NCBI GenBank assembly: GCA_030429765.1
Contig: JAUIER010000002.1
Span: forward strand, 42,126 to 106,125
DNA length: 64,000 nucleotides
Origin: a bacterium
GTDB taxonomy: Bacteria > Omnitrophota > Gorgyraeia > Zapsychrales > Zapsychraceae
Direction of reading: 5' to 3'
Shown: positions 35,479 through 60,927 of the stretch, piece by piece
How the letters are laid out: every line of letters starts with the position of its first letter
Numbering within the stretch: position 1 is the first letter of the stretch
Translations under genes and position numbers: made by a program
The notes under the pieces: generated by a model
The model's input: only the letters and a program-made list of their open reading frames with translations
What the model was told of the DNA's origin: nothing
Databases searched by the model: none

Positions 35479-36225
35479 ATGACACGAACCGCACCCCCTC
35501 AAAAGACTGAAAACCACTGCCAATACTATGTTTACGTCGCTGTTGGCGCATTGATTTTTGTCATAAGCTCCATTTTTGTTGTCCATTTTCAAGGCTTGAG
35601 TCCCCTCGACTTTGGACGATACCTGATGCATGCCTCCGACGATACCCATCACAATATCATCTTCTACCGGAAACTCCCACAGATTTCACTGAACGAACTG
35701 ATTTACCTGGGTTGGTTCCTGGGGGCTGCTGTGATTTTCGCAGGCTCGCGTCTATTGGCCGGCGTATCGTCGACTAAGACTCGAAGTTTGTCGATCTACC
35801 GCTCACTCGGATTGAGCTTATTGGGGATATTCCTCGTCATTCTCACTGGACAGCTCAGCGGACTGTCCAAGAAATGGAGCTATTACCTCGACAATTACAC
35901 GGTTAAATCAGAAGCCGAACGACTAAAGCTCACCTCCATCCGTCAGTCGTTGGAGATGGCGGAATTTTGCAAGCAGCTCCTGCCGGGCCCACATAAAGCC
36001 GATTTTGTCACCGATATGGACATGGACCATGGACCGAATATGCTATTGCATCGTAGCCTGGCTTTTCATCTGTATCCCATCGATATCCGTGATGTTCGCC
36101 AGCAGCGATCCGACAGTTGGATCGCGTTCAACAAGGCAAATGCCCGTGCACACATCCCGGAAGGATTCGAGCTGCTGGGCGCCCTGAATGACGAAAATGT
36201 AATAGCCGTCAGGATGAAACCATGA
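35479..36225 (+). CDS. 3-TM membrane protein with conserved C-terminal soluble domain (paralog A of a duplicated module)
   Basis: Paralogous to 38124..38837. Shared motifs include ...F(V/I)(T/S)DMD(M/I)..P(N/Y)ML(L/M)HR..A..LYPIDIR.V.... ATGA overlap with the next gene. Confidence 0.55.
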   Translation: MTRTAPPQKTENHCQYYVYVAVGALIFVISSIFVVHFQGLSPLDFGRYLMHASDDTHHNIIFYRKLPQISLNELIYLGWFLGAAVIFAGSRLLAGVSSTKTRSLSIYRSLGLSLLGIFLVILTGQLSGLSKKWSYYLDNYTVKSEAERLKLTSIRQSLEMAEFCKQLLPGPHKADFVTDMDMDHGPNMLLHRSLAFHLYPIDIRDVRQQRSDSWIAFNKANARAHIPEGFELLGALNDENVIAVRMKP

Positions 36226-37598
36226 CATTTGCAACCGCATGTGCATCTCTGCTATTGCCCATCACGCTTGGTGCCGTGTTGATACGCATCACAACTCGAA
36301 ACGATCCAATCCCCAAGCCATTGGCCGTGGCTTTAGGTTATGGACTTGGGACAGGCATCTTGACCCACTGGATGGTGATCGCCAATTTTACCGGAATGCC
36401 CCTTTCAGCCCCGGTAATAAACATCCCTCTCGGCATTGCGCTCGTCATCGGAATTGTTAGCCTGCTGCGCCAGTCACGCTCGGTCCGCCGGCTTCAACCA
36501 AATCGCGAACCGCCGGATATGATATCCATCGTGTGCGGATTGGTCATCCTCTTTGTCACCCATTTCATCTTATGGCGGGCCCTGAATTTTCCGATCTTCG
36601 CGTGGGACACTTTTTCTACAATGGGCCTCAAAGGCAAATCCATTTACTACGATCAAACCATCCGAAATCTGGCCTTTATCCCAAAGTTTGATTACCCAAT
36701 TCATATTCCGCTCTTAACGGCATGGATATCCTTCTGCATGGGCGAATGGAATAATACACTCAAAATCTTGTTCCCCTTGCCATGTTTCTTCTATCTGGTC
36801 ATTCAATACTACTTCCTGCGGGAATTCGCGGCCCGTCGCTGGGCGTTACTGAGCGTGGTGTTCCTGCTGTCCTGTAATTTCCTCATATACCATGCGACAA
36901 TTACCTATCGGGATATTCATATGATGTACTTTAATTGCTCAACGCTGCTGCTGATTGCATGGTGGTATCGGCGTCAATCCGGCGCGTGGTTGTTGTTATC
37001 TGCCGTCTTTGCCGGGCTGACCTCATTTATCAAGCTCGAAGGTTTTGGCTACATGGTTCTATACAACCTCCTGATGACCGTCTTGATTTGGTACAGGAAT
37101 GCTGAATCGGCCCGGGCCAAAATAATGAAGAATCTTGAATTTGCGCTTATCAGCGGCGGCATATACGCCATCTATCTGATCTATCGCATCTTTCACATCC
37201 TGCCCTATGCGGCCGGTCGCGACGAAGTACATGCCGAACACTTTTACATCAACAAGATTAATCTGGCGACGGGAGCCGAATTGTTGGAACGAATGGGAGT
37301 GGTTTTGATGCGCTACATCGAAAACTTTTTTATGAGCGGCAACTGGAACGTAATTCCGATCCTTTTTGTTTTAAGTCTATGGCAGATTTTTTTCAGCCGA
37401 AACCGCCATGTTGGCGTGGTGATGTTATTGTTTCTGGGATTGTTTTTTGGAATGTACTTTGTCACATTTTCGGCGACACAACATTACGTCTGGGTGGCCA
37501 AACAACATCATGTGCTATCCCGCTCAATATTGCATGTATTTCCCATTTTGGTCACCCTAACCATCCTGTTAAACGCGGATGATCACTCTAAAACCTAA
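36222..37598 (+). CDS. Polytopic (about 11-13 TM) membrane protein, GT-C-like glycosyltransferase candidate (paralog A)
   Basis: Paralogous to 38842..40239: ALGYG(L/M)GTGILT, a W-D/aromatic-rich loop F(A/T)WD(T/A)(F/Y)S..G(L/F)K(G/A)K, YH(A/S)TI(T/S)YRDI, and FF(M/S)SGNW(N/S)VI. Family assignment is an inference. Confidence 0.55.
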   Translation: MTFATACASLLLPITLGAVLIRITTRNDPIPKPLAVALGYGLGTGILTHWMVIANFTGMPLSAPVINIPLGIALVIGIVSLLRQSRSVRRLQPNREPPDMISIVCGLVILFVTHFILWRALNFPIFAWDTFSTMGLKGKSIYYDQTIRNLAFIPKFDYPIHIPLLTAWISFCMGEWNNTLKILFPLPCFFYLVIQYYFLREFAARRWALLSVVFLLSCNFLIYHATITYRDIHMMYFNCSTLLLIAWWYRRQSGAWLLLSAVFAGLTSFIKLEGFGYMVLYNLLMTVLIWYRNAESARAKIMKNLEFALISGGIYAIYLIYRIFHILPYAAGRDEVHAEHFYINKINLATGAELLERMGVVLMRYIENFFMSGNWNVIPILFVLSLWQIFFSRNRHVGVVMLLFLGLFFGMYFVTFSATQHYVWVAKQHHVLSRSILHVFPILVTLTILLNADDHSKT

Positions 37599-37651
37599 AA
37601 GCTTGATTGGAATAACCTTGTCTGGCCCAAGAAAACCAATATAATAGCAAT

Positions 37652-38119
37652 ATGCGTATTGAAGAAAAATTATTTCAGGCCCTGAAAGAATCGTCCAAGA
37701 CATTGGCCCTGGCGGAATCATGCACGGGAGGATTGATCGGTCATCGGATCACCAACTTGCCGGGAAGCTCCGATTTTTTTATGGGATCAGCCGTCTGCTA
37801 TTCAAATGAGGCCAAAACACGATTGATCGGCGTACCCGAGGCCACACTAAAAAAACACGGCGCCGTCAGCACAGAAGTGGCGATCGCCATGGCCAAAGGC
37901 GCCCGAAAAAAATTTCGCGCAGATTTTGCTTTGGGGATTACGGGCATTGCGGGACCCGCTGGCGGGACGGTCAAAAAACCGGTAGGACTTGTCTACATCG
38001 CCGCCGCCTCTCACAATGAATGTATCTGCCTTCAATATGAATTCACAGGCGATCGAACATCAATCAAAAAGCAAGCCAGTACGAAGGCGCTGCATTTGTT
38101 GACGGAATTTATATATTAA
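37652..38119 (+). CDS. pncC: CinA C-terminal domain protein / nicotinamide-nucleotide amidohydrolase PncC-like
   Basis: LALAESCTGGLI...GITGIAGPAGG... is the CinA signature. Confidence 0.85.
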   Translation: MRIEEKLFQALKESSKTLALAESCTGGLIGHRITNLPGSSDFFMGSAVCYSNEAKTRLIGVPEATLKKHGAVSTEVAIAMAKGARKKFRADFALGITGIAGPAGGTVKKPVGLVYIAAASHNECICLQYEFTGDRTSIKKQASTKALHLLTEFIY

Positions 38120-38123
38120 AACC

Positions 38124-38837
38124 ATGAATAGCGCACGCAATATCACTATCTTCTGCATTCTGTCTGTCGTGATCGGCATGGTGATTGCGCCCTATATCAT
38201 GCCGACCGGTGATATCAAAAACCCCCTCCTCTTATTCGGCGAATTCGCGCGTAACGGTTATTACTTTAATCATAATTATGTGAATCCCGCCGTCGTTCAC
38301 AAAGTCAGCTTCCAGAAATACCTGTACTTCCTGTTTTTTATCGGAGTGATATTGTTTCTTTGCCTCAATATTATCCTGCGCCGTCGAGTCTTTAACGCCT
38401 ACCGTACTATGCTCCATCTCGGCATTATCCTGTTTATCCTAACCAGTATGGTTCAAATTTTTAATTTCTATGCATATTATTTGAGTGAACGCGATGCCTT
38501 TTATGGTCGATCCCTTCTTGAAAGCAATCTTGAGATCAACCGTACACCGCATAAACGTCTGACATTCGAATACAGCCTATTCTGTCATCAACACATTAAA
38601 GGTCCAGCCCGGGCGAAGTTCATCTCTGATATGGATATCAACCGGGATCCTTACATGTTAATGCACCGGATGATGGCCTATTACCTGTATCCGATTGATA
38701 TCCGACATGTTCATCCCGGTGAACCGGAATATCTTCTGTTTTTCTTAAAAAAAGACCCGGAGCAAGCTGTGCCCGCTGACTATGAAATCATTGCCCGGCA
38801 AGGCACAAACTTTTTAATCGCCCGGAAAAAGCAATAA
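38124..38837 (+). CDS. 3-TM membrane protein, paralog B of 35479..36225
   Basis: Same architecture and shared C-terminal motifs (KFISDMDINRDPYMLMHRMMAYYLYPIDIRHV). Confidence 0.55.
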   Translation: MNSARNITIFCILSVVIGMVIAPYIMPTGDIKNPLLLFGEFARNGYYFNHNYVNPAVVHKVSFQKYLYFLFFIGVILFLCLNIILRRRVFNAYRTMLHLGIILFILTSMVQIFNFYAYYLSERDAFYGRSLLESNLEINRTPHKRLTFEYSLFCHQHIKGPARAKFISDMDINRDPYMLMHRMMAYYLYPIDIRHVHPGEPEYLLFFLKKDPEQAVPADYEIIARQGTNFLIARKKQ

Positions 38838-38841
38838 ATCT

Positions 38842-40239
38842 ATGTCATTTGTAACCTTCACATTAACCGCCGTCATTTTTCCGACAATAATCGGATACAT
38901 CCTCATCCGTCGATTACTGCCATCCATCACCCTGCCAACGGGAGTATGGATCGCCCTGGGATACGGTATGGGGACTGGCATATTGACACAATTGATGCTG
39001 CTTCTGGCTATTGGTAAAGTACCGCTAACCCTGGCCCCAATCGCCATCGGAATGTTGAGCATCGGACTTTTGGCGCTCATCAAGCGAAACAGCAGCTCCG
39101 AACGGATTCAACTCAATCCCAGATTGCCGGACCCCGATCAAAAGATCGATCTGATCTCCGTGTTTTGCAAAAGTTACATTATATTGTGCGTCCTCTACGT
39201 CATCTTTCGTGCGATTCACATCCCCCTCTACACGTGGGATGCCTATTCATGTAATGGTTTCAAGGCCAAGGCCCTTTATTTCGAACAATCCCTGAGCCTG
39301 CTGCATAACATGCCGCATTATGAATACCCGCTGCATGTGCCGTTCCTTCAGGTATGGGCGTCGATTTCGGCCAACATGTGGCATGACCAGTGGATCAAAA
39401 TCTTCTTTCCGCTTTACACACTCGCGCTGATCACGGTCCTGCATTTCACGTTGCGTCTGCACGTATCCAAGCAATGGGCCCTGTTTGGGCTCGCTGTGAT
39501 CTTGTCATCCAATCTGTATGTGTACCATTCCACAATTTCCTATCGGGATATCACATTGGCCTACTACGTCAATACCTCCATCGCCATGCTGCTGCTCTGG
39601 ATGAAGTCGCGGCAAAATTCGTTGCTCCTGACAGCTGGAATTTTTACAGGATTTGCGACGTTCGTCAAGCTTGACGCGGCAGGCTATTTGCTTGTCCTTA
39701 TGTCGATGATGTTTTTCCTCGTTGTCTTTGACCGATCGATGAAACTTCCGGCGAAAGTCCGCCATTTCTTTCTCTTTACCCTGCCGGCCGTGCTGATTTG
39801 TCTGGTGTATAACATCTACAAAATCCTGGTCATCGAGCCGCGTATTCCGGCTGTTGAGGGCGAAAAAATGAGCTTCGATCTTTTTAGTGTGAAGATCAAA
39901 CTGGGATTAGATACCTTGGTGAAACTGCAGACCGTACTGGGACGGATTTTTGAAAATCTCTTCTTCAGCGGTAACTGGAGCGTTATCTGGCTGCTGTTTG
40001 CCATCAGCCTGATACATTTGCGTTCCATCAAAGTCACCGCGGAAATTCGTATACTCCTCTATGCCATCGTCGCGTTTATGGGAATCCAAATCCTCGGATA
40101 CACGCTCACGCAGTATTATTTCTGGATCGCGCAGACCAACACGAGCCTCTCGCGTCACCTGCTGCACTATTTTCCCATTGTTGTTTCTCTAATGGTTTTG
40201 ATTAATGGAGGGGAATTAGTTGATCAGTCGGACGACTAA
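38842..40239 (+). CDS. Polytopic membrane protein, GT-C-like candidate, paralog B of 36222..37598
   Basis: 465 aa, collinear similarity to paralog A across the whole length. Confidence 0.55.
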   Translation: MSFVTFTLTAVIFPTIIGYILIRRLLPSITLPTGVWIALGYGMGTGILTQLMLLLAIGKVPLTLAPIAIGMLSIGLLALIKRNSSSERIQLNPRLPDPDQKIDLISVFCKSYIILCVLYVIFRAIHIPLYTWDAYSCNGFKAKALYFEQSLSLLHNMPHYEYPLHVPFLQVWASISANMWHDQWIKIFFPLYTLALITVLHFTLRLHVSKQWALFGLAVILSSNLYVYHSTISYRDITLAYYVNTSIAMLLLWMKSRQNSLLLTAGIFTGFATFVKLDAAGYLLVLMSMMFFLVVFDRSMKLPAKVRHFFLFTLPAVLICLVYNIYKILVIEPRIPAVEGEKMSFDLFSVKIKLGLDTLVKLQTVLGRIFENLFFSGNWSVIWLLFAISLIHLRSIKVTAEIRILLYAIVAFMGIQILGYTLTQYYFWIAQTNTSLSRHLLHYFPIVVSLMVLINGGELVDQSDD

Positions 40240-52676: not shown

Positions 52677-53096
52677 TTATGATTTTTTCGCCCCTGTAGA
52701 CTTTTTTGCGGTTTTTTTGCGTGTTTTGGTCGTCTTTTTAGCGGGCGACTTGCGCTTAGCTGTTTTCTTAGCGGTCTTTTTGGCCGACTTCTTCAGCTGG
52801 CTCTTGATTGATTTCTGCTCGGCATCAATCTTGTGATAATCCTCAATCAGGCCTTTAAGGGCCGCGGTAGGCTTAGTCAAGTCCTTGAGCTTAACAACTT
52901 CCTTACCGATTTGATAGTACAGCTTCTCCTTCTTGAGCCCCACGGCTGTCGAGTCGAGATGAATCTTGCTCTGGTGTGTGAACTTAAGGAGCTCCTCCTC
53001 ACCCTTCTTGGCCAATTTGGAGGCTTCCTTGCCGAACTTGGCGAGCTGCTTTTTGGTCTTTTCCCATTCTGATTTTACATCATAATGTTTTGACAT
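52677..53096 (-). CDS. Lysine-rich protein with histone H1/Hc1-like C-terminal tail (KKTAKK repeats)
   Basis: Helical N-terminal 90 aa, then SAKKTAKKTAKRKSPAKKTTKTRKKTAKKSTGAKKS. Confidence 0.5.
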   Translation of the reverse strand: MSKHYDVKSEWEKTKKQLAKFGKEASKLAKKGEEELLKFTHQSKIHLDSTAVGLKKEKLYYQIGKEVVKLKDLTKPTAALKGLIEDYHKIDAEQKSIKSQLKKSAKKTAKKTAKRKSPAKKTTKTRKKTAKKSTGAKKS

Positions 53097-53246
53097 CTTT
53101 CACCCTCCTGAAATTTGATGTTCCACAAATAAAGGAATAATAATGACTTATAACAACAGTATACCCGATAATCCAGACCACGCGCAAGGTCTCGACTGCA
53201 ATATTTTTTATTGCAGGGAAAAATTTTTACCGCTATACTAGGAAGT

Positions 53247-53483
53247 ATGAAAGACGGATTGATGCTATTTACGGGAATCGCCCTGGTGTTTGGTTTGATG
53301 ATCTTCGGTATGTACAAGTTCACTCGAGCGAATTATGACGCGCCCGAACGTACCCAGGAAGAAATCGAGGCAGCCTATCAGGAACGCGCCGACCGCCGAC
53401 AGCAAATCAAGGACGTTCAACGACGTCAAAGAGATTTGATGCGCCAGCAGAAACAACGTATCCGGGACATGCAGCGTCGTTAA
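53247..53483 (+). CDS. Small membrane protein with Arg/Gln-rich charged C-terminal tail
   Basis: The ATG at 53247 is preceded by GGAAG; the track start is a TTG. One TM, then a QRRQRDLMRQQKQRIRDMQRR tail. Confidence 0.4.
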   Translation: MKDGLMLFTGIALVFGLMIFGMYKFTRANYDAPERTQEEIEAAYQERADRRQQIKDVQRRQRDLMRQQKQRIRDMQRR

Positions 53484-53502
53484 CTATAAATCCCATACCC
53501 AC

Positions 53503-53910
53503 CTATGTATGGTCTCGGGCCGATAAGATTCGTTGAGTCATTTCGGATTCATAAAGATCCGCTATCTCCACCAACCCTTCATCTCCCAGGAAATTCTTAA
53601 TTGCTGCCTCAATGGCCTCCAGTCTGGCCAACAGATATCGGTAGTCAGGATTTAAAACCTTCCTGGCCATATCATCAAATTTTTTGGATTCAGCTTTGGC
53701 GAGCTTGTTGTTTTTGTAGTCTTCAAACTCTAATATTCGTTTGGACAATTGATCATCTTTATCGATCCTTTTGTTGAGTTCTTCCAGCAGAAAATCATCA
53801 ACAATAGCCTGCGTAAAGTATCGATCAATACGATCGAGATCTTCCTTGGTGGTTTTGTAACACCAGATCAGATACCGTCTGACTAGATTTAGTTGATTGG
53901 GTTCCAACAT
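53503..53910 (-). CDS. Hypothetical helical protein downstream of the Cys-rich TadE-like gene
   Basis: 135 aa, no recognisable motif. 48-nt gap after the upstream gene. Confidence 0.4.
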   Translation of the reverse strand: MLEPNQLNLVRRYLIWCYKTTKEDLDRIDRYFTQAIVDDFLLEELNKRIDKDDQLSKRILEFEDYKNNKLAKAESKKFDDMARKVLNPDYRYLLARLEAIEAAIKNFLGDEGLVEIADLYESEMTQRILSARDHT

Positions 53911-53958
53911 TTATTATGAGGTATTTTTCGGAAGAGAATTAGATTTGCCTAGACTCGA

Positions 53959-56157
53959 CTAGATACAGTTGTTGGTTCCGCCTGTGTCACAATTTCCACT
54001 ACAACACTCACCATTACTTGCACAAGCATTGCCATTATCTGTACAACACACATTGGAGACACAACTTTCTGTTCCAGCACATCCACCGCAAGTTGCCGTC
54101 CCACCGCATCCATCTGGGAAGCTACCACAATTGCCTGGTCCGCAGGTCAGAGGTGTACAGCATGAGTTGGAGACACATACATCACCCGGCGTCGGACATG
54201 CCCCGCAATTCAATGTGCCCCCGCAACCATCCGGAATACCTGAACCACAGTCTCCCGCGTTACAGGTGGCAGGAGTACAACAAGTGCTCGCATTACACAC
54301 GTCGCCAGGCGTTGGACATGCTCCGCAGTTTATGGTAGATCCGCAACCGTCCGGAATACCGGGCCCACATTGCCCCGGCCCGCAAGTTGACGGCGTACAA
54401 CACGTATTTGAAACACATACATCACTTGGCCCCGGGCAAACACCACAATCTGTATCGGGAATCCCCGGACAACCGGAATTAATCGACCCACAATCGCCGG
54501 CAACACACGCGTAAGGTGCGCAGCATGTTTGCGTCGCGTCACAGACGTCCGGCAATGTACATGAACCACAGTCTACGTCTGGAATTCCCGGACATCCGGA
54601 TGGGAAAATTCCACAATCCGTTGGCGCACATTGATGCGGAGTACAACAATTCTGCGATGTATCACAAACCTCCGGCAAACTACATCCGCCACAGTCAACA
54701 TCAGGGATTGTCGGACAACCTGAAGGGAATGTCCCACAATTAGTCGCTGTACATTGGTATGGAAGACAACAATTACTTGGTGTGATAAACTGCTCTGGCG
54801 TCTCACCATTCCCGACTGGACCACCAACCACTACACATACTTCAGCCCCGGGACATGAAGTGCCGCAATCATGAATATCGTCGCAATTGTCAAACGTCTC
54901 GCCACATGTTGGATGACTACAGGTTATGGATGGATTCTGAGGCGTACATACACATTGGTTACCACTCGGATTTTGAAAACAACTTTCGTTCGCATTGCAC
55001 AAGTCAGGACAAATGATCGTCTGACCACAATTGTTGACAGCTGGGCCGCACTGATGGATTTCGGTCGGAGGGACTCCGCATGTGGTTTGCCATGGATCAG
55101 GCGAACACCCGGAACATGTCGTTCCCACACACACATTGGCTCCTGTACAAGTGTCTGGACATGTTACATTGTTTCCACAGTTGTCCACGGCCGGACCACA
55201 TTCCTGACCTAGGCACGTTATTCCAAGGGGCTCGGGGATACATACGCAGGAATTACCCGAGCATCCCTGGGGTGGACTCATGAGAGCGCATGTATCAGGG
55301 CAGGTAACTGTTTGACCACAATTATTAACCGCCGTACCGCATGACACTCCCGAACATGTCGTTGACAACGGCTCAGGCGCACAATTACATAGGTTACCGA
55401 CACATACATCTGGAGGTGTACACGTATCCGGACAGCTGACAATTTGCCCACAATTATTCGTGGCATTTCCACACTCCAATCCCGAACACGTCGTTCCAAT
55501 GGCATCAGGCGTACAACAGCTATTTCCCTGACAGACATCACCAGGCCCACATGTGTTTGGACAAGTAACATTTTGGAAGCAGTTATTGACAGCCGGACCA
55601 CACGCTATACCAGTACAAGTTGTTCCCAACGCCTCGGCCGTACAGGAGCATACATTTCCTGAACAGGTGTCCGGAGGAGCACATCCCCCGCAATTGACAA
55701 GCGTACCACATCCATCATCGATGGATCCACAAGCCAATCCACCACAAGGATTGGTTGGAATACACACACACGTGTTGCCCACACACCCCAAAGGTGACAC
55801 ACAACTACCGCAATTCAGCAAGACGCCACAACCATCATTTATGGTACCACATTCGATAGGACCACCGCAGCTATTGGAAGGAACACAACCCGTGGAGCAA
55901 TCGGCCGCACAAGTTGCATTTTCACCGGGTTCACAACACCCGTTACCACATGTAGGAGTACACCCCGAAGTAAGATCAAAACAAACACCATCGGCCATAC
56001 ACTCAATCCCGCGGACGGCATTCTCAAGTGAATCATCCATGGATCGCTCAAGCAATCCGCCTGGCGACATCGCCCAGACGATCAGCCCGACGATGACGGA
56101 AAAAAGCAGCAAGTACTCGACAAGCTGCTGGCCAATTTTGTTTGTTTTAAGGAGCAT
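53959..56157 (-). CDS. TadE/Flp-pseudopilin-like N-terminus fused to about 680 aa of cysteine-rich tandem repeats (secreted or surface protein)
   Basis: The N-terminus MLLKTNKIG/QQLVEYLLLFSVIVGLIV matches the TadE-like class III signal G-xxxxEY plus a hydrophobic helix. It is followed by about 6 repeats of the type TTCSGxxCGxAVNNCGQxVxCPDTC...VCxGNxC. About 7 further repeats are of the type CCTPxxCxxGxCGSxxxGCPGIPDxDCGxCxxPxDVC. Cys is roughly 20% of residues. ATG at 56157; the track TTG is at 56163. Confidence 0.7.
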   Translation of the reverse strand: MLLKTNKIGQQLVEYLLLFSVIVGLIVWAMSPGGLLERSMDDSLENAVRGIECMADGVCFDLTSGCTPTCGNGCCEPGENATCAADCSTGCVPSNSCGGPIECGTINDGCGVLLNCGSCVSPLGCVGNTCVCIPTNPCGGLACGSIDDGCGTLVNCGGCAPPDTCSGNVCSCTAEALGTTCTGIACGPAVNNCFQNVTCPNTCGPGDVCQGNSCCTPDAIGTTCSGLECGNATNNCGQIVSCPDTCTPPDVCVGNLCNCAPEPLSTTCSGVSCGTAVNNCGQTVTCPDTCALMSPPQGCSGNSCVCIPEPLGITCLGQECGPAVDNCGNNVTCPDTCTGANVCVGTTCSGCSPDPWQTTCGVPPTEIHQCGPAVNNCGQTIICPDLCNANESCFQNPSGNQCVCTPQNPSITCSHPTCGETFDNCDDIHDCGTSCPGAEVCVVVGGPVGNGETPEQFITPSNCCLPYQCTATNCGTFPSGCPTIPDVDCGGCSLPEVCDTSQNCCTPHQCAPTDCGIFPSGCPGIPDVDCGSCTLPDVCDATQTCCAPYACVAGDCGSINSGCPGIPDTDCGVCPGPSDVCVSNTCCTPSTCGPGQCGPGIPDGCGSTINCGACPTPGDVCNASTCCTPATCNAGDCGSGIPDGCGGTLNCGACPTPGDVCVSNSCCTPLTCGPGNCGSFPDGCGGTATCGGCAGTESCVSNVCCTDNGNACASNGECCSGNCDTGGTNNCI
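53975..55880 (-). repeat. Intragenic tandem coding repeats (about 105-120 bp units, two families) in the Cys-rich gene
   Basis: Direct reading of the translated repeats. Many spurious ORFs in other frames on both strands (e.g. 53969..54514 +, 55553..56188 +) reflect repetitive, stop-poor DNA. Confidence 0.75.
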
Positions 56158-56330
56158 ACGCAATCTCTGGCAAAACCAGTTAGGTTAAACACCCTATAAT
56201 TATACCCAAAAAGTTCGGTACACACTAGAATTATTTTGGAATCCCTGAGGTTGAGATTTTCACATATTTCCGGTCAATATCTAAGTATAACACAAGTAGG
56301 GAAGAAATCCGAACCCTGAGGGCCCAAGGA

Positions 56331-56975
56331 TCAGTTCACCCGAAATACCTTATCCCCTACTCTGACAGGCTTTTTAAGCTTAACTCCCACCAGCTGGCCA
56401 CGTTTGGCCGACTTGACCTCCACGCTTTCGATCTGCAACGATTCAATGGTCTCAAGATTATCCGTCTGTTTACCCTTTATATTGATCTGGTCCCCCAACT
56501 TTATTGACGTCTTATTGACCTTGATCACACACACTTTGATCTTGGAGAAATAGTGGGTCACTTCTCCAACGAGCGACGAGGCCGCCGATTTTGCACGAGC
56601 CCCCTTGGAGGCTGACTTCTTTTTGGTGGCAGCGACCTTCTTTTTAGCCGGAGCTTTCTTCGGCGCCGACTTTCGTTTGGCTGCGGGGCTGGACTTGGCT
56701 GGTGACTTTTTGGCCTTCGCCGGTGTATTCTTTCGACGATCACTCGAACTCGTCGAGCTTCGTCGAGCGCCTGAACTCTTTCGGGGAGTGGCTTTGGACT
56801 TAGTGGTCGTCGATCTTGAGCGAGATGATGATGAACGCGAAGGTTTGGCTCGGGCGGCTTTGGTTTTGGTGGATTGAACTCTGGACTTGTTGTAACGCGT
56901 TGGTCGAACGACCGTGTCTGATGAACCGGCAAACCAACTCTTGACTGTATCGATGATTTGGTTGAGGAAATCCAT
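56331..56975 (-). CDS. Basic, Ser/Lys/Ala/Arg-rich intrinsically disordered protein with C-terminal small beta-barrel domain
   Basis: Residues 25-140 are low-complexity basic (SRSSSSRSRSTTTKSKATPRKSS...AKKSPAKSSPAAKRKSAPKKAPAKKK). The C-terminal 75 aa is a GD-containing beta-hairpin domain (KLGDQINIKG...VRVGDKVFRV). Confidence 0.5.
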   Translation of the reverse strand: MDFLNQIIDTVKSWFAGSSDTVVRPTRYNKSRVQSTKTKAARAKPSRSSSSRSRSTTTKSKATPRKSSGARRSSTSSSDRRKNTPAKAKKSPAKSSPAAKRKSAPKKAPAKKKVAATKKKSASKGARAKSAASSLVGEVTHYFSKIKVCVIKVNKTSIKLGDQINIKGKQTDNLETIESLQIESVEVKSAKRGQLVGVKLKKPVRVGDKVFRVN

Positions 56976-57056
56976 TTTACCTAACTAGTGGTGTGGAATC
57001 TGCTCCTGGGGGAATCCATTCGATATGCGCTGAATCATTAGTTTCCAATCGTCCCA

Positions 57057-58298
57057 TTATCCAGCGGCCTGCTGATCTCCCGCCGACACTTCGATCAAAG
57101 AATTGATATCCCCGAAAGAATTCCGTTCTTTGCGGGCATTCTTTGGATCTTCCTTCCACACACCGTCAACAATGAACTGATATTTGTAGAGACCCGGCTT
57201 AAGTGGAATCTCCGCCTCCCAGGTGCCGTCCTTTTCATGCATGCGACAGGTGTCATCCAGCGACCAGTCATTAAAACTTCCGGTAACGTAGACTGATTTG
57301 GCTTCCGGAGCATTAATCGAAAATCGGATCTTGCTCAATCCAACCATTTCCTTACGTACAATATCCTGCATTTGCTCGGACATTGGCGCCAAGGCATCCT
57401 CAGAGATCAGCTCTTCCGATTTTGTAGTTTCCGTACGTTCAATGCGATTTTCCCGTCGAACCTCATCTCGAACCACTTCACGGGGCGCTTCGGCAATCTC
57501 TTCCCTAGCTTGATCCTTTTCTTCAGACTTTTCACGATCCAGCCGGTCAAGCAATATAAGCTCTTTGGCCAGACTGAAATAGTCTTTCGATCCGCGGCAG
57601 TATTTGTCATAAGCTGAAACCGTCTTGCCCATAACAGCCGATTCCTTCAATTTGACATTGATGTGGATAATTGTATCGAACATAATCTTTTCAAATCGCT
57701 CTTTAAACGTCGACAGCATCGCAAAAGAGTGGCGAAGGCGTGAATCAAACATCGTCACCAAAATACGGCACTTTACTTCATGATTCAGCCGATCCTTTAC
57801 AAGATTGACGATGTCCGTCAGGTGATCAACACCCTGCATGGAAAAACGGCTGGTTTCCACCGGAATGATCAGCTCATCGCTGACGCGGATGGCGTTGACT
57901 GTCAAAATCCCCAGACTCGGCGGGCAGTCAATAATCACGTAGTCATACCTGTCGTTGAGCGGTTCAATCGCCTCGCGAAGTTTGAGCTCACGGCCAATTT
58001 CATCCGACAACTCCTGCTCCAGGGTTCCAACCAGAACATTTGAGGGAACCAGATCAAAACTATTTTCGACACGTCGGATAATATTTTCGATTTTGAGTTT
58101 GCGAGGGGTCAGCTTAGAAATAACGTTATAGATACTGTCCTGGCTTTCAATATCAAGACCAAGCGACGCGTGAGCTTGTGGGTCCAGATCGAACAATAAA
58201 ACCTTTTGCCCGTTCTGGCTCAGAGCCGACGCCAAATTAATTGCTGTAGTGGTCTTCCCGCATCCACCTTTTTGGTTAGCGACTGAAATTATTTTCAT
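57057..58298 (-). CDS. ParA/MinD-family ATPase fused to a C-terminal CBM48 / AMPK-beta glycogen-binding domain
   Basis: Deviant Walker A KGGCGKTT at residues 10-17. A charged coiled linker follows. The C-terminus VYVTGSFNDWS...PGLYKYQFIVDGVWKEDP aligns to the AMPK beta GBD/CBM48 consensus (VYLSGSFNNW...YKFFVDGQW.HDP). RBS AGGGGG. Confidence 0.85.
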   Translation of the reverse strand: MKIISVANQKGGCGKTTTAINLASALSQNGQKVLLFDLDPQAHASLGLDIESQDSIYNVISKLTPRKLKIENIIRRVENSFDLVPSNVLVGTLEQELSDEIGRELKLREAIEPLNDRYDYVIIDCPPSLGILTVNAIRVSDELIIPVETSRFSMQGVDHLTDIVNLVKDRLNHEVKCRILVTMFDSRLRHSFAMLSTFKERFEKIMFDTIIHINVKLKESAVMGKTVSAYDKYCRGSKDYFSLAKELILLDRLDREKSEEKDQAREEIAEAPREVVRDEVRRENRIERTETTKSEELISEDALAPMSEQMQDIVRKEMVGLSKIRFSINAPEAKSVYVTGSFNDWSLDDTCRMHEKDGTWEAEIPLKPGLYKYQFIVDGVWKEDPKNARKERNSFGDINSLIEVSAGDQQAAG

Positions 58299-58328
58299 AT
58301 TGAAATGCCCCCTAATATTCGTAATGGA

Positions 58329-58910
58329 TTAGTTGGTTGTTGCAAAATTTATATTGTCGATCAAGACAATCCCGCGCTTGTCTTCAACGTTCCAGGACTC
58401 TAAGACAAATGCGACATCTTGAACGCTGGACCAATCAGATATTTCCTTGAATTCCGAAAGCGGAATATGATAGTCCTGCCAGGCCAGATTGACCCCTTCG
58501 ATATAGTGGTAAGCCTCTTCATTGTAACGACTTGTGACAACGACCTTGACTATACCCGGCACGCCTTCCTCCTTGCCCCGCATGGAAAATTCCAGACTTC
58601 CATACTTGCCGACGTCCATATCCGGTATCGACAAGGCAAATCGTTCAACAGGATTGCTCGATCCCTTAAAATCATAGTCAAACCGAACAGCTCCCTGATG
58701 AAGCGAGTAGATGACGTTCTGCTTGAGTTCATCCTTGTTGTGTGTAAGAAAAGCTGTCAGACCATAAAAAGCGCTGGCAAAAATGATCGCCGTGATCAAC
58801 CCGTTGATCAGCAGCCAAGCATTGAATTGCTTTTTGGTTTTGGCATCATCTTTTTTACGCTTGCCCAAGTAAACTTGCGCAAGATGGTCGTAGATATCGT
58901 CTTTGGTCAT
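58329..58910 (-). CDS. Membrane-anchored protein with extracytoplasmic beta-sandwich (CBM-like?) domain, hypothetical
   Basis: Lys-rich N-terminus, one TM (WLLINGLITAIIFASAFYGLTAF), then a 130-aa domain rich in beta-strand patterning. First gene of the cluster, preceded by an about 200-bp AT-rich region. Confidence 0.45.
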   Translation of the reverse strand: MTKDDIYDHLAQVYLGKRKKDDAKTKKQFNAWLLINGLITAIIFASAFYGLTAFLTHNKDELKQNVIYSLHQGAVRFDYDFKGSSNPVERFALSIPDMDVGKYGSLEFSMRGKEEGVPGIVKVVVTSRYNEEAYHYIEGVNLAWQDYHIPLSEFKEISDWSSVQDVAFVLESWNVEDKRGIVLIDNINFATTN

Positions 58911-59145
58911 TGGTCCGTCTTAAAGATTTATTAGATAATCGGAATGGAAGAACTGCTTTTTTTATCTAATTATTTTTATCATAACAAATTAAAAACAAAT
59001 TAAAACTATAATTTCACTTTTTTTTACAATAAAAAATATTTTTTCTCGTCGAGAAAATGGAATACTTAAAAATCATTTGGAAAATATTTTACAATTAGCT
59101 CGTCGGAACGCTACGAGCGTGAACTCAAGTGCACAATCAAACCAT

Positions 59146-59178
59146 AAAAAAAGCCCCTGCCGATTTCTCGACAGGGGC
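59146..59178 (-). terminator. Rho-independent terminator after the OMP gene
   Basis: On the minus strand: GCCCCTG-tcgagaaatcgg-CAGGGGC followed by TTTTTTT, 27 nt after the stop codon. Confidence 0.8.
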
Positions 59179-59204
59179 TTGATCTATAATCGATCAACTA
59201 ACGA

Positions 59205-60575
59205 TTAGAATGCAACGTTCATGTTAACCAATACTTGTTTGGCTGATGAATCGTTTTCGCTTTCCCAGATACTTCCTGGTAAAAACCATCCAACGCTAGC
59301 ACCGATTTGTACATCTTCAGTGTAGTCATAAGACAGGTCAAAGTTAAACTCTTTCCCGATGTGTCCACTGTTGTTGTTTGTTGCCAATGACAGTGTTGTT
59401 CCATCTGGCTGTCGGATTGACTTTGATCCGAATTTTGTGTTTCTTTCATTCCACAGGCTAGTGATTCCAAGACGTGCAGTTACGTCTTCCATCGGCTCAG
59501 CCATTAGGTAAAGCGAGTGGATTTCCATGTTTGTTAGATCAAACAATGAATTGTAGATATGTCCACCACCTTGTGCTTCGAAGAATGGATCCCATCCAGT
59601 CCAGTCAGTTTGAGATGTAGAGTTATCCTCTTCACCTGTAACCTTGGTGAAGATGTACTGAGCCACTGGCTTGTACTCTTCTAGAGCTGGGATTTGGTAG
59701 TTTACGATACCCTGGAAGGCCCAAGCGCTTCTTTTTCGATTGGCGTTCGTTGTAGACGAAAGTCTCTTACGTCCACCTTGGTGAGCCATTTCGAACTGAA
59801 TGTTCAGGTTTTCCAATGGGTTAGTGCTGGCGCGAACCCCTGTTACCTTGATGTAGTCAGTTTGCGCTCCAGTTACGTTATCGTTGTCTTCTTTGTTGCG
59901 TGATTTATAGAAGTACGCTTCCACAACTGAGTCCATATCGTCACCCAATTGGTAGTTGGCGTTAACCCCCCATAGATCGATGTCATCATCTAGGTCAGAC
60001 AATGAAACCGTGTTTTGGTCGATCTTTGAGTAGAATACTTCTACAGTTAGCGGATTGTAATCGAAGATCGCTCGGATCGCATCAATTGCAGTCTGCTTCG
60101 TTAGATCTTGAGCGATTCCATTGATACCTGAGTCACCCGGTGCCAAGTTGTTGGCTCCAGTTGCGTCAAATACCAATCCGTTTCCGTATGAAAACGTCTG
60201 GCGCCCCACAACTAGTGTAAGTGGAGAGTACAGCATTTCCTTTAGTGTTACATAGGCCAAGTGAAGATCAACGTCAGACGATGATGTCGTGTTGTCGGCA
60301 TTCCATCCTCTTTCAGTGATCAGCGCGATCGTTACGAATACTTGGTCTGTAAGGTCAGCATCAACTTGAAGACCTGTCTGGTTGATGAACAGGCTTTGCT
60401 CATCTTGAACGCGGTTAGGCGCGATACCAGCTTTTGAACCCAAGTTGAAATTGTTGCGGTAAATATAAGTGTTGTCAGTCCATCCACTTATCTTTACGTT
60501 TTGAACGCTAGCAAATGCCGGTACCGCTGATAGAGCGACAGCCGCAGCAGCTGCTAATACGAATAATTTTCTCAT
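59205..60575 (-). CDS. Outer-membrane beta-barrel porin (signal peptide, C-terminal aromatic Phe)
   Basis: ATG at 60575 with a GGAGGAG RBS. Signal peptide MRKLFVLAAAAAVALSAVPAFA. Alternating amphipathic beta-strands ending ...VLVNMNVAF. Confidence 0.7.
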   Translation of the reverse strand: MRKLFVLAAAAAVALSAVPAFASVQNVKISGWTDNTYIYRNNFNLGSKAGIAPNRVQDEQSLFINQTGLQVDADLTDQVFVTIALITERGWNADNTTSSSDVDLHLAYVTLKEMLYSPLTLVVGRQTFSYGNGLVFDATGANNLAPGDSGINGIAQDLTKQTAIDAIRAIFDYNPLTVEVFYSKIDQNTVSLSDLDDDIDLWGVNANYQLGDDMDSVVEAYFYKSRNKEDNDNVTGAQTDYIKVTGVRASTNPLENLNIQFEMAHQGGRKRLSSTTNANRKRSAWAFQGIVNYQIPALEEYKPVAQYIFTKVTGEEDNSTSQTDWTGWDPFFEAQGGGHIYNSLFDLTNMEIHSLYLMAEPMEDVTARLGITSLWNERNTKFGSKSIRQPDGTTLSLATNNNSGHIGKEFNFDLSYDYTEDVQIGASVGWFLPGSIWESENDSSAKQVLVNMNVAF

Positions 60576-60927
60576 TATTTCTCCTCCAAAAAGGTAAATA
60601 ACTACTTCAGATTTTGATATATTCAACTAGACGATCTAAGGTTATGTCTAGAGATTTACATATTAGGTTGACCAGTTTACTCGACGATTCGACAATAATG
60701 TTTTTTACCATCCCCCCTTTCTTATTCGTATATTTGAATCATCACTGGTATTGCTCTCACGGGCATATACTCGCCGTAAATACAAATAATTGCAATTCTT
60801 AACGTATAGCGATACGCATAGCTCCGCTGAAAACAAATGGTTATTCGTTGTTTTTATCACACGCTAACGGCAGTGTCAACAAAATTTGATTTTATTTTAA
60901 CTTGCAATTTTTTGCGCTACTCTCCCG

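What the first reader, a model, noticed from the sequence alone, without database searches (positions are those of the whole stretch)
53959..56157. Giant TadE/Flp-pseudopilin-like protein with about 19 cysteine-rich tandem repeats
Seen in sequence: the N-terminus MLLKTNKIG|QQLVEYLLLFSVIVGLIV fits the Flp/TadE class-III signal. That signal is Gly, then Glu-Tyr at +5/+6, then a hydrophobic helix, processed by TadV/CpaA-type prepilin peptidases. TadE-like pseudopilins are normally 150-200 aa. This one carries about 680 additional residues built from two families of 35-40-aa repeats, each with 6-8 cysteines (TTCSGxxCGxAVNNCGQxVxCPDTC...; CCTPxxCxxGxCGSxxxGCPGIPDxDCGxCxxPxDVC), about 20% Cys overall.

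This would be a disulfide-knotted modular stalk on a pilin-like anchor. It could be an adhesin, a pilus tip or minor pilin, or an S-layer-like surface fibre.

The repeat DNA is itself tandemly repetitive and a potential site for recombinational length variation. No tad/cpa secretion genes are in the window.
Basis: partly seen in the sequence, partly recalled or inferred. Interest (0 to 1): 0.7.

Follow-up and report, generated by a model that had tools for sequence, protein, structure and literature searches.

The report
Pilin-like protein with giant cysteine-rich stalk
An uncultured Omnitrophota bacterium has taken a tiny, conserved pilin-like gene (normally about 60 amino acids) and fused it to a 680-residue stalk of 14 cysteine-rich mini-domains of an undescribed fold, probably making a long surface fibre for sticking to other cells.

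Summary
The ORF is real: minus strand 53959-56157, 732 aa, 126 Cys (17.2%).

**N-terminus.** It reads MLLKTNKIG|QQLVEY, then a 22-residue hydrophobic helix, an SPGG break and an amphipathic helix. Most of the short members listed carry Pfam PF04021, and one is named "class III signal peptide-containing protein". The best matches in the PDB are Tad/Flp pilins, but only marginally (E about 0.03). It is Flp/class-III-like, not TadE-like.

**Repeats.** The rest is 14 copies of one 8-Cys repeat of 38-60 aa in four subtypes, not about 19 in two families. An 8-Cys knob precedes them and a 6-Cys cap follows. AlphaFold2 models three repeats at pLDDT 96.5. Nothing matches in PDB, Pfam or NCBIfam. The repeat DNA is diverged (at most 69% identity, longest exact repeat 13 nt), so it is not a present-day recombination hotspot.

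**Synteny.** The gene sits in a conserved Omnitrophota slot (ParA-CBM48 ... S15-PNPase). Relatives carry there a 60-aa protein, or versions of 469 to 1425 aa with various Cys-rich arrays.

**Limits.** No pilus machinery lies in the window or in any related locus. Cleavage and filament assembly are inferred, not shown.

**Verdict.** A new variant of a known kind: a modular pilin.

The parts
56131..56157 (-). Leader peptide, aa 1-9 (MLLKTNKIG). Short and basic, ending in Gly. The predicted prepilin-peptidase cleavage site lies after G9.
   Evidence: Sequence. In 126 family members the -1 residue is G in 103, A in 22 and S in 1, and the median leader is 10 aa. The register agrees with mature Tad pilins 8u1k and 8u2b.
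56062..56130 (-). Alpha1-N, aa 10-32: QQLVEYLLLFSVIVGLIVWAMSP. Q at +1, E at +5, Y at +6, then a hydrophobic helix ending at a Ser-Pro-Gly-Gly break.
   Evidence: Q10 and E14 are invariant in alignments A1, A2 and A5; Y15 is invariant in A1 and nearly invariant in A5, with F in P0026. AlphaFold2 gives helix 7-30 at pLDDT about 93-95.
55990..56061 (-). Alpha1-C, aa 33-56: amphipathic helix GGLLERSMDDSLENAVRGIECMAD. It is conserved in the short 53-70-aa family members.
   Evidence: AlphaFold2 gives helix 35-55 at pLDDT 87-94. The short-pilin profile A3 matches over its positions 4-60.
55888..55989 (-). N-terminal Cys knob, aa 57-90, containing the CGNGCCEPGE...C..DC motif. Together with C53 it has 8 Cys.
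   Evidence: C59, C66, C70-G-N-G-C-C-E-(P/Q)-G-E79, C83 and D86-C87 are invariant in A1/A2. The 90-aa paralogues P0026 and P0027 end here. The motif is also a widespread stand-alone repeat (multi-stretch hits).
55645..55887 (-). Repeats R1-R2, aa 91-171: the 'DGCG' subtype, 8 Cys each.
   Evidence: AlphaFold2 models beta-hairpins at pLDDT 80-86.
54769..55644 (-). Repeats R3-R8, aa 172-463: the 'CxPxPxxTTCxGxxCGxAVNNCGQxVxCPDTC' subtype, 43-60 aa and 8 Cys each.
   Evidence: The AlphaFold2 model of R4-R6 has mean pLDDT 96.5; each unit is a short helix plus two beta-hairpins.
54400..54768 (-). Repeats R9-R11, aa 464-586: the 'CxPxxCxxxxCGxFPSGCPGIPDVDCGxC' subtype, 41 aa and 8 Cys each.
   Evidence: Pairwise identity among them is 57-68% at protein level.
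54046..54399 (-). Repeats R12-R14, aa 587-704: the 'CTPxTCxxGxCGxGIPDGCGGTxNCGACPTPGDVC' subtype, 38-40 aa and 8 Cys each.
   Evidence: The same subtype is abundant in proteins with ordinary Sec or lipoprotein leaders, such as P0009, P0015 and P0020.
53962..54045 (-). C-terminal 6-Cys cap, aa 705-732: CTDNGNACASNGECCSGNCDTGGTNNCI. The stop codon is at 53959-53961.
   Evidence: Sequence. A similar C-terminal ...CCSGNCD....C ending occurs in P0002.
57057..58298 (-). Conserved neighbour: a ParA/MinD-type ATPase with a C-terminal AMPK1_CBM/CBM48 module. It is nearly always found just upstream of the family gene in related genomes.
   Evidence: Pfam. Synteny in L001, L082/83, L085-L092 and L096-L101, L103.
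56331..56975 (-). Conserved neighbour: a 214-aa protein with a long basic Ser/Lys/Ala-rich N-terminal half. Homologues of its C-terminal part in related loci carry a weak EF-Tu-domain-2 hit.
   Evidence: PF03144 (weak) on the positional homologues in L090 and L092. tblastn conservation.
53503..53910 (-). Conserved neighbour immediately downstream: a 135-aa protein with no Pfam hit, present after the family gene in most of the syntenic loci.

Best explanation
**What it is.** This is a modular Flp / class-III-type pilin of an uncultured Candidatus Omnitrophota bacterium.

**Shown**
- The first about 56 residues are homologous to a family of 53-70-aa Omnitrophota proteins. These consist only of a short basic leader, the G/A|Q-x-x-x-E-Y motif, a hydrophobic helix and an amphipathic helix. 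That is the size and design of Tad/Flp pilins and archaeal class-III pilins.
- The gene occupies the same conserved chromosomal slot as those mini-proteins.
- In this lineage a small CGNGCCEPGE cysteine knob was added, followed by 14 copies of an 8-Cys mini-domain. In other lineages the same slot carries different Cys-rich arrays.
- The ectodomain has no Lys or Arg at all, 57 Asp/Glu and a pI of about 4.

**Inferred**
- The protein inserts in the inner membrane with its N-terminus in.
- A prepilin peptidase encoded elsewhere removes residues 1-9.
- The E5-bearing helix then lets the protein join a Tad or type-4 filament. Given its bulk, it most likely sits at the tip or sparsely along the shaft. 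Alternatively it stays helix-anchored.
- It thereby presents a stiff, disulfide-stapled, acidic rod some tens of nanometres long that binds a host, prey or surface ligand.
- The lineage-specific replacement and resizing of the C-terminal array suggests diversifying pressure on a surface-exposed recognition structure.
For: **The gene and its taxon**
- ORF and composition.
- Taxon: PNPase is 77% identical to two Omnitrophota MAGs.

**Orthologues**
- Orthologues with the same N-module lie at the same locus. L001/P0001 is 469 aa, L002 is 1199 aa, L003 is 1187 aa and L083 is 1043 aa, the last followed by a 90-aa N-module-only paralogue.

**N-module family**
- A HMMER search of 1.84 billion representative proteins gave 291 hits at E <= 1e-3. 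They include many 53-70-aa proteins and modular ones up to 1425 aa.
The -1 residue is G in 103 and A in 22, and +6 is Y in 124.
- Most of the short members listed carry PF04021, and one has the NCBI name [quoted passage not shown].
- Orthologue N-termini hit PF04021 at E 1e-4 and 1.7e-3, and Flp_Fap at E 4e-3.
- The short-member profile scores 65.5 bits (E 4e-18, relative to the ORFs of the window and the fetched loci) on the window protein.
- Its two best PDB hits are Caulobacter Tad PilA 8u1k and Flp pilin 8u2b, aligned from mature residue 2.

**Structure models**
- N-terminus: helix 7-30, break, helix 35-55.
- Repeats R4-R6: pLDDT 96.5, each unit a helix plus two beta-hairpins.

**Same slot in other genomes**
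- It is occupied by 60-80-aa members in L085-L091 and L096-L101, L103, and by a 1425-aa member with other Cys repeats in L092.

**Literature**
- Modular pilins are widespread and are thought to be tip-exposed (PMC8179133).
- Tad pili carry variable, disulfide-rich minor-pilin tips in predators (PMC12075869).
Against: - The window protein's own N-terminus gets no Pfam or NCBIfam hit.
- Orthologue hits to PF04021 are just below the gathering score (22.4 against 23.7 bits). The PDB pilin hits are marginal (E about 0.03).
- No prepilin peptidase, secretion ATPase, platform protein or secretin lies in the 64-kb window, and none lies beside any of the roughly 20 family loci examined.
- The conserved neighbours are a ParA-like ATPase and small unknown proteins, not a tad operon.
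- In the window, L001, L002 and L003 the giant form is the only family copy seen at the locus. A filament built only of 71-kDa subunits seems unlikely.
Confidence: 0.6

Rival explanations
1. Uncleaved signal-anchor. The N-terminal helix is a permanent inner-membrane anchor (type II topology). The Cys-rich rod then stays in the periplasm or reaches the surface without any pilus machinery. The conserved ParA-CBM48 cluster would be its real functional partner, for example in positioning an envelope structure.
For: No pilus genes lie near any family member. The gene is instead locked into a conserved cluster with a ParA-like ATPase and small membrane or unknown proteins. The hydrophobic helix is long enough to span a membrane.
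Against: A plain anchor does not need G/A at -1, Q at +1, E at +5 and Y at +6, yet these are kept in 126 sequences. A charged Glu five residues into a membrane helix is the hallmark of type-4 pilins (established knowledge). The short members are only a leader plus helix-break-helix, like Flp.
Confidence: 0.25
2. TadE/TadF-type minor pseudopilin that has been enlarged.
For: It has a G-xxxx-EY-type motif and a hydrophobic helix. TadE, TadF and TadG share the same peptidase site. Large, disulfide-rich Tad minor pilins exist (PMC12075869).
Against: PF07811 gives no hit at E <= 10. No beta-stranded pilin domain follows the helix. The homologues are 53-70-aa Flp-size proteins, not 150-200-aa TadE. 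No tadF, tadG or tad operon is adjacent.
Confidence: 0.05
3. Ordinary Sec-secreted or lipoprotein Cys-repeat protein, like its Myxococcota-type repeat homologues. On this reading the pilin-like look of the N-terminus is coincidental.
For: The same repeats occur in about 22 proteins with classical Sec or lipoprotein leaders.
Against: There is no AxA site or lipobox. The h-region is about 22 residues and begins with a Glu. The N-module is homologous, at 65.5 bits, to PF04021-annotated proteins. The N-module and the repeats clearly have separate evolutionary histories: the slot holds the N-module with no repeats or with other repeats.
Confidence: 0.04
4. Metal-binding or redox scaffold. The 118 ectodomain cysteines would be free thiols that bind metals, rather than forming structural disulfides.
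For: Very high Cys content. Many Omnitrophota are anaerobes (PMC10066038), where disulfide formation is less obvious.
Against: Every module has an even Cys count (8, 8, 6). Spacing is strictly conserved. The fold is modelled very confidently as a compact hairpin of the disulfide-rich mini-domain type. There are no His-rich or CxxCH motifs.
Confidence: 0.05

Closest known systems
Flp / Tad (type IVc) pilins, e.g. Caulobacter crescentus PilA (PDB 8u1k), Flp pilin (8u2b), Aggregatibacter Flp1
   Same: Both have a leader ending in Gly, E at +5 and Y at +6, a hydrophobic helix and then a short amphipathic helix. The short positional orthologues have the same mature size, about 45-55 aa. These pilins are the best PDB sequence hits and align in register.
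   Different: Q rather than A, V or T at +1, and a short archaeal-style 'KG|Q' leader. The window protein carries 676 extra residues. It is not encoded next to tadV-rcp-tadZABC. PF04964 is below threshold.
Archaeal class III signal peptide proteins (Pfam PF04021). Examples recalled from memory: EppA/PibD-processed pilins, and Sulfolobus sugar-binding proteins that carry class III signals
   Same: The K-G|Q-x-x-x-E-[YF]-L-L motif. Most of the short family members listed are annotated PF04021. Large non-pilin ectodomains behind class III signals are known in archaea (my knowledge). The archaeal contig L094 encodes P0007, which has a class-III-like leader, the same Cys repeats and LamG domains.
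   Different: The host is a diderm bacterium. The window sequence itself gets no PF04021 hit, and its orthologues score 22.4 and 18.7 bits against a gathering score of 23.7.
Modular type IV pilins (Streptococcus sanguinis PilB/PilC, ETEC CofB, an 860-aa Candidatus Falkowbacteria pilin with 12 repeats; PMC8179133)
   Same: A small pilin module serves as carrier with functional modules grafted at the C-terminus. Multi-repeat examples exist. A tip location is expected.
   Different: Those are built on the IPR012902 N-methyl (F/M at +1) pilin with a globular alpha-beta pilin domain. Here the carrier is a helix-only Flp-type module and the graft is an undescribed 8-Cys repeat.
TadE/TadF/TadG minor pilins and Myxococcus KilL/M/N 'Tip' complexes (PMC12075869)
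   Same: They share a prepilin-type N-terminus, variable disulfide-rich distal domains and a predatory-bacteria context.
   Different: No TadE domain (PF07811) and no beta-stranded pilin core. It is a single gene rather than an L/M/N trio.
Cys-rich repeat arrays of Myxococcota-type secreted proteins (P0002-P0025), and eukaryotic EGF-like arrays as a structural analogy
   Same: The same 8-Cys repeat family, with 30-54% identity over a quarter to a half of the query, in tandem rod-like arrays. EGF arrays from NELL2 and Notch are the nearest PDB shapes, though not significantly so.

Membership tests
Class III signal peptide family (Pfam PF04021) | Short basic leader, small residue (G/A) at -1, Q at +1, E at +5, followed by a hydrophobic helix | tested here: met
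   MLLKTNKIG|QQLVEYLLLFSVIVGLIV. Q10 and E14 are invariant in A1, A2 and A5.
Class III signal peptide family (Pfam PF04021) | HMM score at or above the gathering threshold (23.7 bits) | tested here: not met
   The window N-terminus gets no hit at E <= 10. Orthologues score 22.4 and 18.7 bits. Most of the short positional orthologues listed do carry a precomputed PF04021 annotation.
Class III signal peptide family (Pfam PF04021) | Demonstrable homology to annotated members | tested here: met
   A profile of twelve 56-71-aa members scores 65.5 bits, E 4e-18 (relative to the ORFs of the window and fetched loci), over residues about 6-62. The reciprocal search of 1.84 billion proteins recovers them.
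Class III signal peptide family (Pfam PF04021) | Cleavage by an A24-family prepilin peptidase | not testable with these tools
   No peptidase gene lies in the window or the loci.
Flp/Tad type IVc pilin (Pfam PF04964) | G/XXXXEY processing motif | tested here: met
   G9 | Q-Q-L-V-E14-Y15. +6 is Y in 124 of 126 family members.
Flp/Tad type IVc pilin (Pfam PF04964) | HMM score at or above the gathering threshold (32.2 bits) | tested here: not met
   The orthologue P0001 N-terminus scores 17.3 bits, E 4e-3. The window sequence gets no hit. PDB Tad pilins match at E 0.03-0.04.
Flp/Tad type IVc pilin (Pfam PF04964) | Small mature protein (about 45-60 aa) that is essentially one helix | tested here: not met
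   The mature window protein would be 723 aa. The feature is met by the positional orthologues of 57-67 aa.
Flp/Tad type IVc pilin (Pfam PF04964) | Encoded in or near a tadV-rcpCAB-tadZABCDEFG locus | tested here: not met
   No such genes lie in the 64-kb window. None lies within 10 kb of the roughly 20 family loci examined.
TadE/TadF pseudopilin (Pfam PF07811) | TadE N-terminal domain HMM match | tested here: not met
   No hit at E <= 10 for the full-length protein or for the N-terminal 60 aa.
TadE/TadF pseudopilin (Pfam PF07811) | Beta-stranded globular pilin domain packed on alpha1 | tested here: not met
   AlphaFold2 gives helix, break, helix, then an irregular Cys knob and the repeat hairpins. 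There is no pilin beta-sheet.
Modular type IV pilins (sensu Raynaud et al. 2021, PMC8179133) | N-terminal pilin module carrying IPR012902 (N-methylation site, F/M at +1) | tested here: not met
   +1 is Gln. Pfam reports no N_methyl hit.
Modular type IV pilins (sensu Raynaud et al. 2021, PMC8179133) | Extra C-terminal module(s) not specific to pilus biology, grafted onto the pilin module | tested here: met
   The 14 repeats also occur in about 22 non-pilin secreted proteins. The same slot carries the N-module alone or with other arrays.
Myxococcus cysteine-rich repeat (TIGR02232 / PF13948 DUF4215) | HMM match to the repeat | tested here: not met
   No Pfam or NCBIfam hit for the whole protein or for isolated repeat blocks. 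The relative P0069 does carry a weak DUF4215 hit.
EGF-like / other solved Cys-rich mini-domains | Significant structural match of the repeat model to a solved structure | tested here: not met

The most novel reading that the evidence does not exclude
One conserved chromosomal slot in a clade of Omnitrophota encodes a universal helix-only, Flp-like "carrier". Different lineages have repeatedly grafted interchangeable Cys-rich ectodomains of 0 to about 1400 residues onto it. This would be a hypervariable host- or prey-recognition fibre of ultra-small, possibly predatory or parasitic bacteria. The invariably linked ParA-CBM48 / EF-Tu-D2-like / small-protein cluster would be a dedicated, so far undescribed positioning or assembly system, working with or instead of canonical Tad/T4P machinery. 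The 8-Cys repeat would be a new protein fold family.
Probability: 0.2. Interest if true: 0.8.

Novelty: new variant of a known kind. Interest (0 to 1): 0.6.

Why it matters
- **Biology of the phylum.** Omnitrophota are uncultured nanobacteria thought to live by attaching to other cells. What they attach with is largely unknown, beyond gene counts for Tad and type-4a pili and giant ORFs.
- **A testable candidate.** This locus is a concrete attachment candidate. It is a conserved pilin-like carrier whose exposed part is swapped and resized between lineages, as expected for a molecule in an arms race with hosts.
- **Modular pilins.** It extends the modular-pilin idea from globular type IVa pilins to helix-only Flp / class-III pilins.
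- **A new repeat.** It points to an abundant 8-Cys repeat that is modelled with very high confidence. The repeat is also found in Myxococcota-type secreted proteins and in one archaeal contig, and has no Pfam or NCBIfam model and no solved structure.
- **If the pilin reading is wrong.** The conserved ParA-CBM48 cluster with a class-III-motif protein would still be an unexplained, phylum-specific envelope module.

Tried and rejected
**Searches that found nothing**
- Pfam and NCBIfam on the full protein, on isolated repeat blocks and on N-termini gave nothing for the repeats, and only sub-threshold PF04021 and Flp_Fap hits on orthologue N-termini.
- Tandem Repeats Finder on the DNA gave nothing.
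- Full-text search for 'DGCGG' returned only irrelevant hits.
- The supplements of PMC10066038 do not list the two closest MAGs.
- The AFDB library was not available.
- PDB sequence searches with the protein and with the repeat profile found nothing.
- The strict sigma-70 promoter scan found none upstream. A terminator-like hairpin at 56309-56327 follows the upstream gene.

**The search for a link to pilus machinery**
- I looked for pilus machinery next to any family member. I examined 11 contig look-ups and 9 metagenome loci.
- All but three (L093, L094, L102) showed the same non-pilus synteny. None showed Tad or T4P genes.

**Ideas rejected**
- TadE membership.
- An ordinary Sec signal.
- Recent DNA-level repeat instability.
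- Antisense ORFs inside the gene (53969-54514 and 55553-56188 on the + strand). They have no independent support; I read them as by-products of the biased, Cys-rich coding sequence (untested).


Full report
**1. What is in the sequence**

The finding's coordinates hold one uninterrupted ORF on the minus strand, 53959-56157 (ATG; an in-frame TTG lies 6 nt upstream). It encodes 732 aa. There are 126 cysteines (17.2%), and Gly, Thr, Pro and Asn are also abundant.

The only Lys and Arg residues are K4, K7, R38 and R49. Residues 56-732 therefore contain no basic residue, against 57 Asp/Glu, and the calculated pI is about 4.

By manual parsing, a MAFFT alignment and a profile HMM, residues 91-704 are 14 tandem units of 38-60 aa. 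Each has exactly 8 Cys in one common framework: C-x-P-...-C-...-CG-...-C-...-C-...-C-...-C-...-C. They fall into four sequence subtypes: R1-2, R3-8, R9-11 and R12-14. Residues 53-90 form an 8-Cys knob with the motif CGNGCCEPGE...C..DC. Residues 705-732 form a 6-Cys cap.

The DNA is not tandemly repetitive:
- Tandem Repeats Finder returns nothing.
- The most similar repeat pair is 69% identical at the DNA level.
- The longest exact direct repeat in the gene is 13 nt.

**2. Organism and context**

The neighbouring PNPase is 77% identical to that of two Candidatus Omnitrophota MAGs (HKST-UBA13 and HK-STAS-OMNI-4). It is 54% identical to Candidatus Velamenicoccus archaeovorus.

The window is housekeeping DNA. 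It holds:
- a dcw cluster (FtsA, FtsQ, a PBP, MraW);
- riboflavin genes;
- ligA, xerC-like, truB and ribF;
- S15-PNPase-FtsK-RodZ-MiaB;
- sigma-70 and PPDK (synteny with L001).

No Tad, T4P or T2SS component was found. The only PilM_2 hit is FtsA, sitting within the dcw cluster.

**3. The N-terminus is a class-III / Flp-type pilin module**

*Orthologues.* The protein is absent from the 5.8-billion-sequence database. Its best hit, P0001 (469 aa), shares the N-terminus and lies in a syntenic locus. Orthologues in the two closest MAGs (1199 and 1187 aa) and in GCA_043955405.1 (1043 aa) have the same N-module. There the large gene is followed by a 90-aa paralogue that is the N-module alone.

*Conserved positions.* Across these sequences Q at +1, E at +5 and the CGNGCCE-GE knob are invariant. 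Position +6 is Y or F, and -1 is G or A.

*Family size.* A profile of the N-module was searched with HMMER against 1.84 billion representative proteins. It found 291 proteins at E <= 1e-3. Some of these match only the Cys knob motif.
- -1 is G in 103, A in 22 and S in 1;
- +6 is Y in 124;
- the median leader is 10 aa;
- 68 are 100 aa or shorter, 37 are 100-300 aa and 21 are longer than 300 aa.

*The short members.* These are just a leader, a hydrophobic helix and an amphipathic helix. Most of those listed carry PF04021 (Class_IIIsignal), one also Flp_Fap. One has the NCBI name [quoted passage not shown].

*Link to the window protein.* A profile built only from twelve such mini-proteins scores 65.5 bits (E 4e-18, relative to the ORFs of the window and the fetched loci) on the window protein. 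Its two best hits among 177,635 PDB sequences are the Caulobacter Tad pilin PilA (8u1k) and an Flp pilin (8u2b). Both align from mature residue 2, so the predicted cleavage falls exactly at G9|Q10. These hits are marginal (E 0.03-0.04).

*Direct Pfam scans.* They give PF04021 at E 1e-4 (22.4 bits; gathering score 23.7) and Flp_Fap at E 4e-3 for the P0001 N-terminus. The L003 orthologue gives PF04021 at E 1.7e-3. The window sequence itself gives nothing, and TadE (PF07811) gives nothing for any of them.

*Structure model.* AlphaFold2 on residues 1-171 gives helix 7-30, a break at S-P-G-G and helix 35-55, with pLDDT 87-95. An irregular Cys knob and the first two repeats follow. There is no beta-sheet pilin domain.

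*Argument against a Sec signal.* There is no AxA site or lipobox. The hydrophobic stretch is about 22 residues and starts with a Glu.

*Conclusion.* The Flp / class-III reading is well supported by homology and motif conservation. The TadE label is not.

**4. A conserved slot with a hypervariable gene**

The short family members sit in the same gene order as the window gene:

Alginate_exp porin - about 193 aa - ParA + AMPK1_CBM - (MamF/MmsF-like) - EF-Tu-D2-like protein with a basic N-terminal half - [family gene] - about 140 aa - about 80 aa on the opposite strand - about 100-160 aa - S15 - PNPase - FtsK - RodZ - MiaB.

This order was seen for:
- P0189, P0177, P0179, P0192 and P0084;
- eight of nine metagenome loci found with the GQNA[IV]EY pattern, two of them short contigs showing only one or two of the markers;
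- P0069, a 1425-aa member whose ectodomain is built of different Cys-rich repeats, with a weak DUF4215 hit.

In L091 the core cluster is kept although the downstream S15-PNPase block is replaced.

Only three members were elsewhere: P0058 next to a PIN/antitoxin pair and hrcA-grpE-dnaK; the 500-aa member on L102; and the archaeal P0007. None of these loci contains pilus machinery.

The window protein is therefore the positional orthologue of a roughly 60-aa pilin-like protein. In this slot the size runs 60, 62, 66, 80, 469, 732, 1043 (with a 90-aa paralogue directly after it), 1187, 1199 and 1425 aa. At least two different kinds of Cys-rich array are used. Repeat counts with the window-derived HMM are 4 (about 5 by eye), 14, 20-22, 23 and 24. 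L002 and L003, two distinct MAGs whose orthologues are nearly identical over most of their length, differ by one repeat and in their C-termini. Turnover therefore happens over evolutionary time, even though today's DNA repeats are too diverged for easy recombination.

**5. The repeat**

The same 8-Cys repeat occurs in about 22 other proteins with ordinary Sec or lipoprotein leaders. They have varied N-terminal domains (parallel beta-helix, FGE-sulfatase and others). One is named as coming from a Deltaproteobacteria MAG.

It also occurs in P0007, which has a class-III-like leader (MDKSGQITLEY), the repeats and LamG domains. P0007 lies on a contig that carries archaeal Nre genes.

No Pfam or NCBIfam model matches the repeat, and no PDB sequence matches it.

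The following are inferences; I could not read the model coordinates:
- disulfide pairing, from the even Cys counts, the fixed spacing and the confident compact fold;
- a rod-like shape some tens of nanometres long, from 14 small modules in series.

**6. Mechanism**

*Shown:* the homology, motif, predicted helices, synteny and repeat architecture.

*Inferred from established knowledge of type-4 filaments:* G at -1 is the prepilin-peptidase site. E5 pairs with the N-terminus of a neighbouring subunit during assembly. The protein would be cleaved after G9 by an A24 peptidase encoded elsewhere, and its helix would dock into a Tad or T4 filament.

The 66-kDa ectodomain is bulky. By analogy with modular pilins (PMC8179133) and with variable Tad tips in predators (PMC12075869), a tip or sparse location is most likely. 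[quoted passage not shown] Presence in this particular genome is untested.

The acidic, Lys/Arg-free, disulfide-rich rod suggests a protease-resistant spacer or adhesin. The lineage-specific swapping suggests diversifying selection on a surface-exposed ligand binder.

The main rival is that the helix is simply an uncleaved membrane anchor, working with the conserved ParA-CBM48 cluster rather than with a pilus. This fits the complete lack of nearby pilus genes. It does not explain the conserved G/A, Q, E and Y positions.

**7. Novelty and score**

Known elements are class III signal proteins in Omnitrophota (automatic annotation) and modular pilins in general. I found the following described neither in the libraries nor in the papers I searched:
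- a helix-only, Flp-type carrier fused to long arrays;
- its fixed chromosomal slot with 0 to about 1400-aa lineage-specific grafts;
- the 8-Cys repeat itself.

I rate it a new variant of a known kind, interest 0.6. My confidence in the core identification (pilin-type N-module plus 14-repeat Cys stalk) is about 0.85. My confidence in the full mechanism (cleavage and filament display) is about 0.5-0.6.

Noticed in passing
window 52677-60626 (minus strand, plus 53211-53483 on the + strand): A gene cluster travels as a unit across many Omnitrophota contigs, even where the flanks differ (L091). Its order is: Alginate_exp porin, a 193-aa single-TM protein, ParA + CBM48, an EF-Tu-D2-like basic protein, the class-III protein, a 135-aa protein, a 90-aa TM/coiled-coil protein on the opposite strand, and a 139-aa basic protein. 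Its function is unknown, and most members have no Pfam hit.
   Followed up: partly
window 57057-58298 (-): A ParA/MinD-type ATPase is fused to a C-terminal glycogen/starch-binding module (AMPK1_CBM / CBM48 / CBM53). This is an unusual pairing. It could tether a partition-type ATPase to a polysaccharide granule or to the envelope.
   Followed up: no
window 56331-56975 (-): A 214-aa protein has a very basic Ser/Lys/Ala/Arg-rich, low-complexity stretch of about 120 aa, histone-H1-like in composition. The following part, in positional homologues, gives a weak EF-Tu domain 2 hit.
   Followed up: no
window 35479-40239 (+): A duplicated pair of membrane-protein genes with no Pfam hit: 248 aa + 458 aa and 237 aa + 465 aa. 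The paralogues are 28% and 31% identical. The two pairs flank a cinA-like gene.
   Followed up: partly
L094:2451-4913 (P0007): A contig with archaeal Nre_N/Nre_C genes encodes an 820-aa protein. It has a class-III-like leader (MDKSGQITLEY), three copies of the same 8-Cys repeat and two LamG domains. The same repeat is therefore used behind pilin-type signals in an archaeon too. Exchange between archaea and archaea-associated Omnitrophota is conceivable but untested.
   Followed up: partly
L083:6842-9973 and L083:10001-10273: In GCA_043955405.1 the giant form (1043 aa, about 20 repeats) is followed 27 nt later by a 90-aa paralogue. The paralogue consists only of the leader, the helices and the CGNGCCEPGE knob. 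This looks like a major/minor subunit pair.
   Followed up: partly
window 53962-54045 (aa 705-732); P0002 C-terminus: The 6-Cys C-terminal cap (...ACxxxxxCCSGNCD......C) recurs at the C-terminus of an unrelated Sec-signal repeat protein (P0002). This suggests a dedicated capping module for these arrays.
   Followed up: no
one search hits such as P0046, P0052, P0109, P0168: The knob motif CGNG(V/I)CEPGE..xxC(P)xDC is by itself a widespread tandem repeat of about 22 aa, with up to 15 copies per protein, in many proteins with ordinary signal peptides.
   Followed up: no
window 53969-54514 (+) and 55553-56188 (+): Long antisense ORFs (181 and 211 aa) run inside the gene. They are Pro/Gln/His/Val-rich with no independent support, and are most likely by-products of the biased codon content of the Cys-rich gene.
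   Followed up: no
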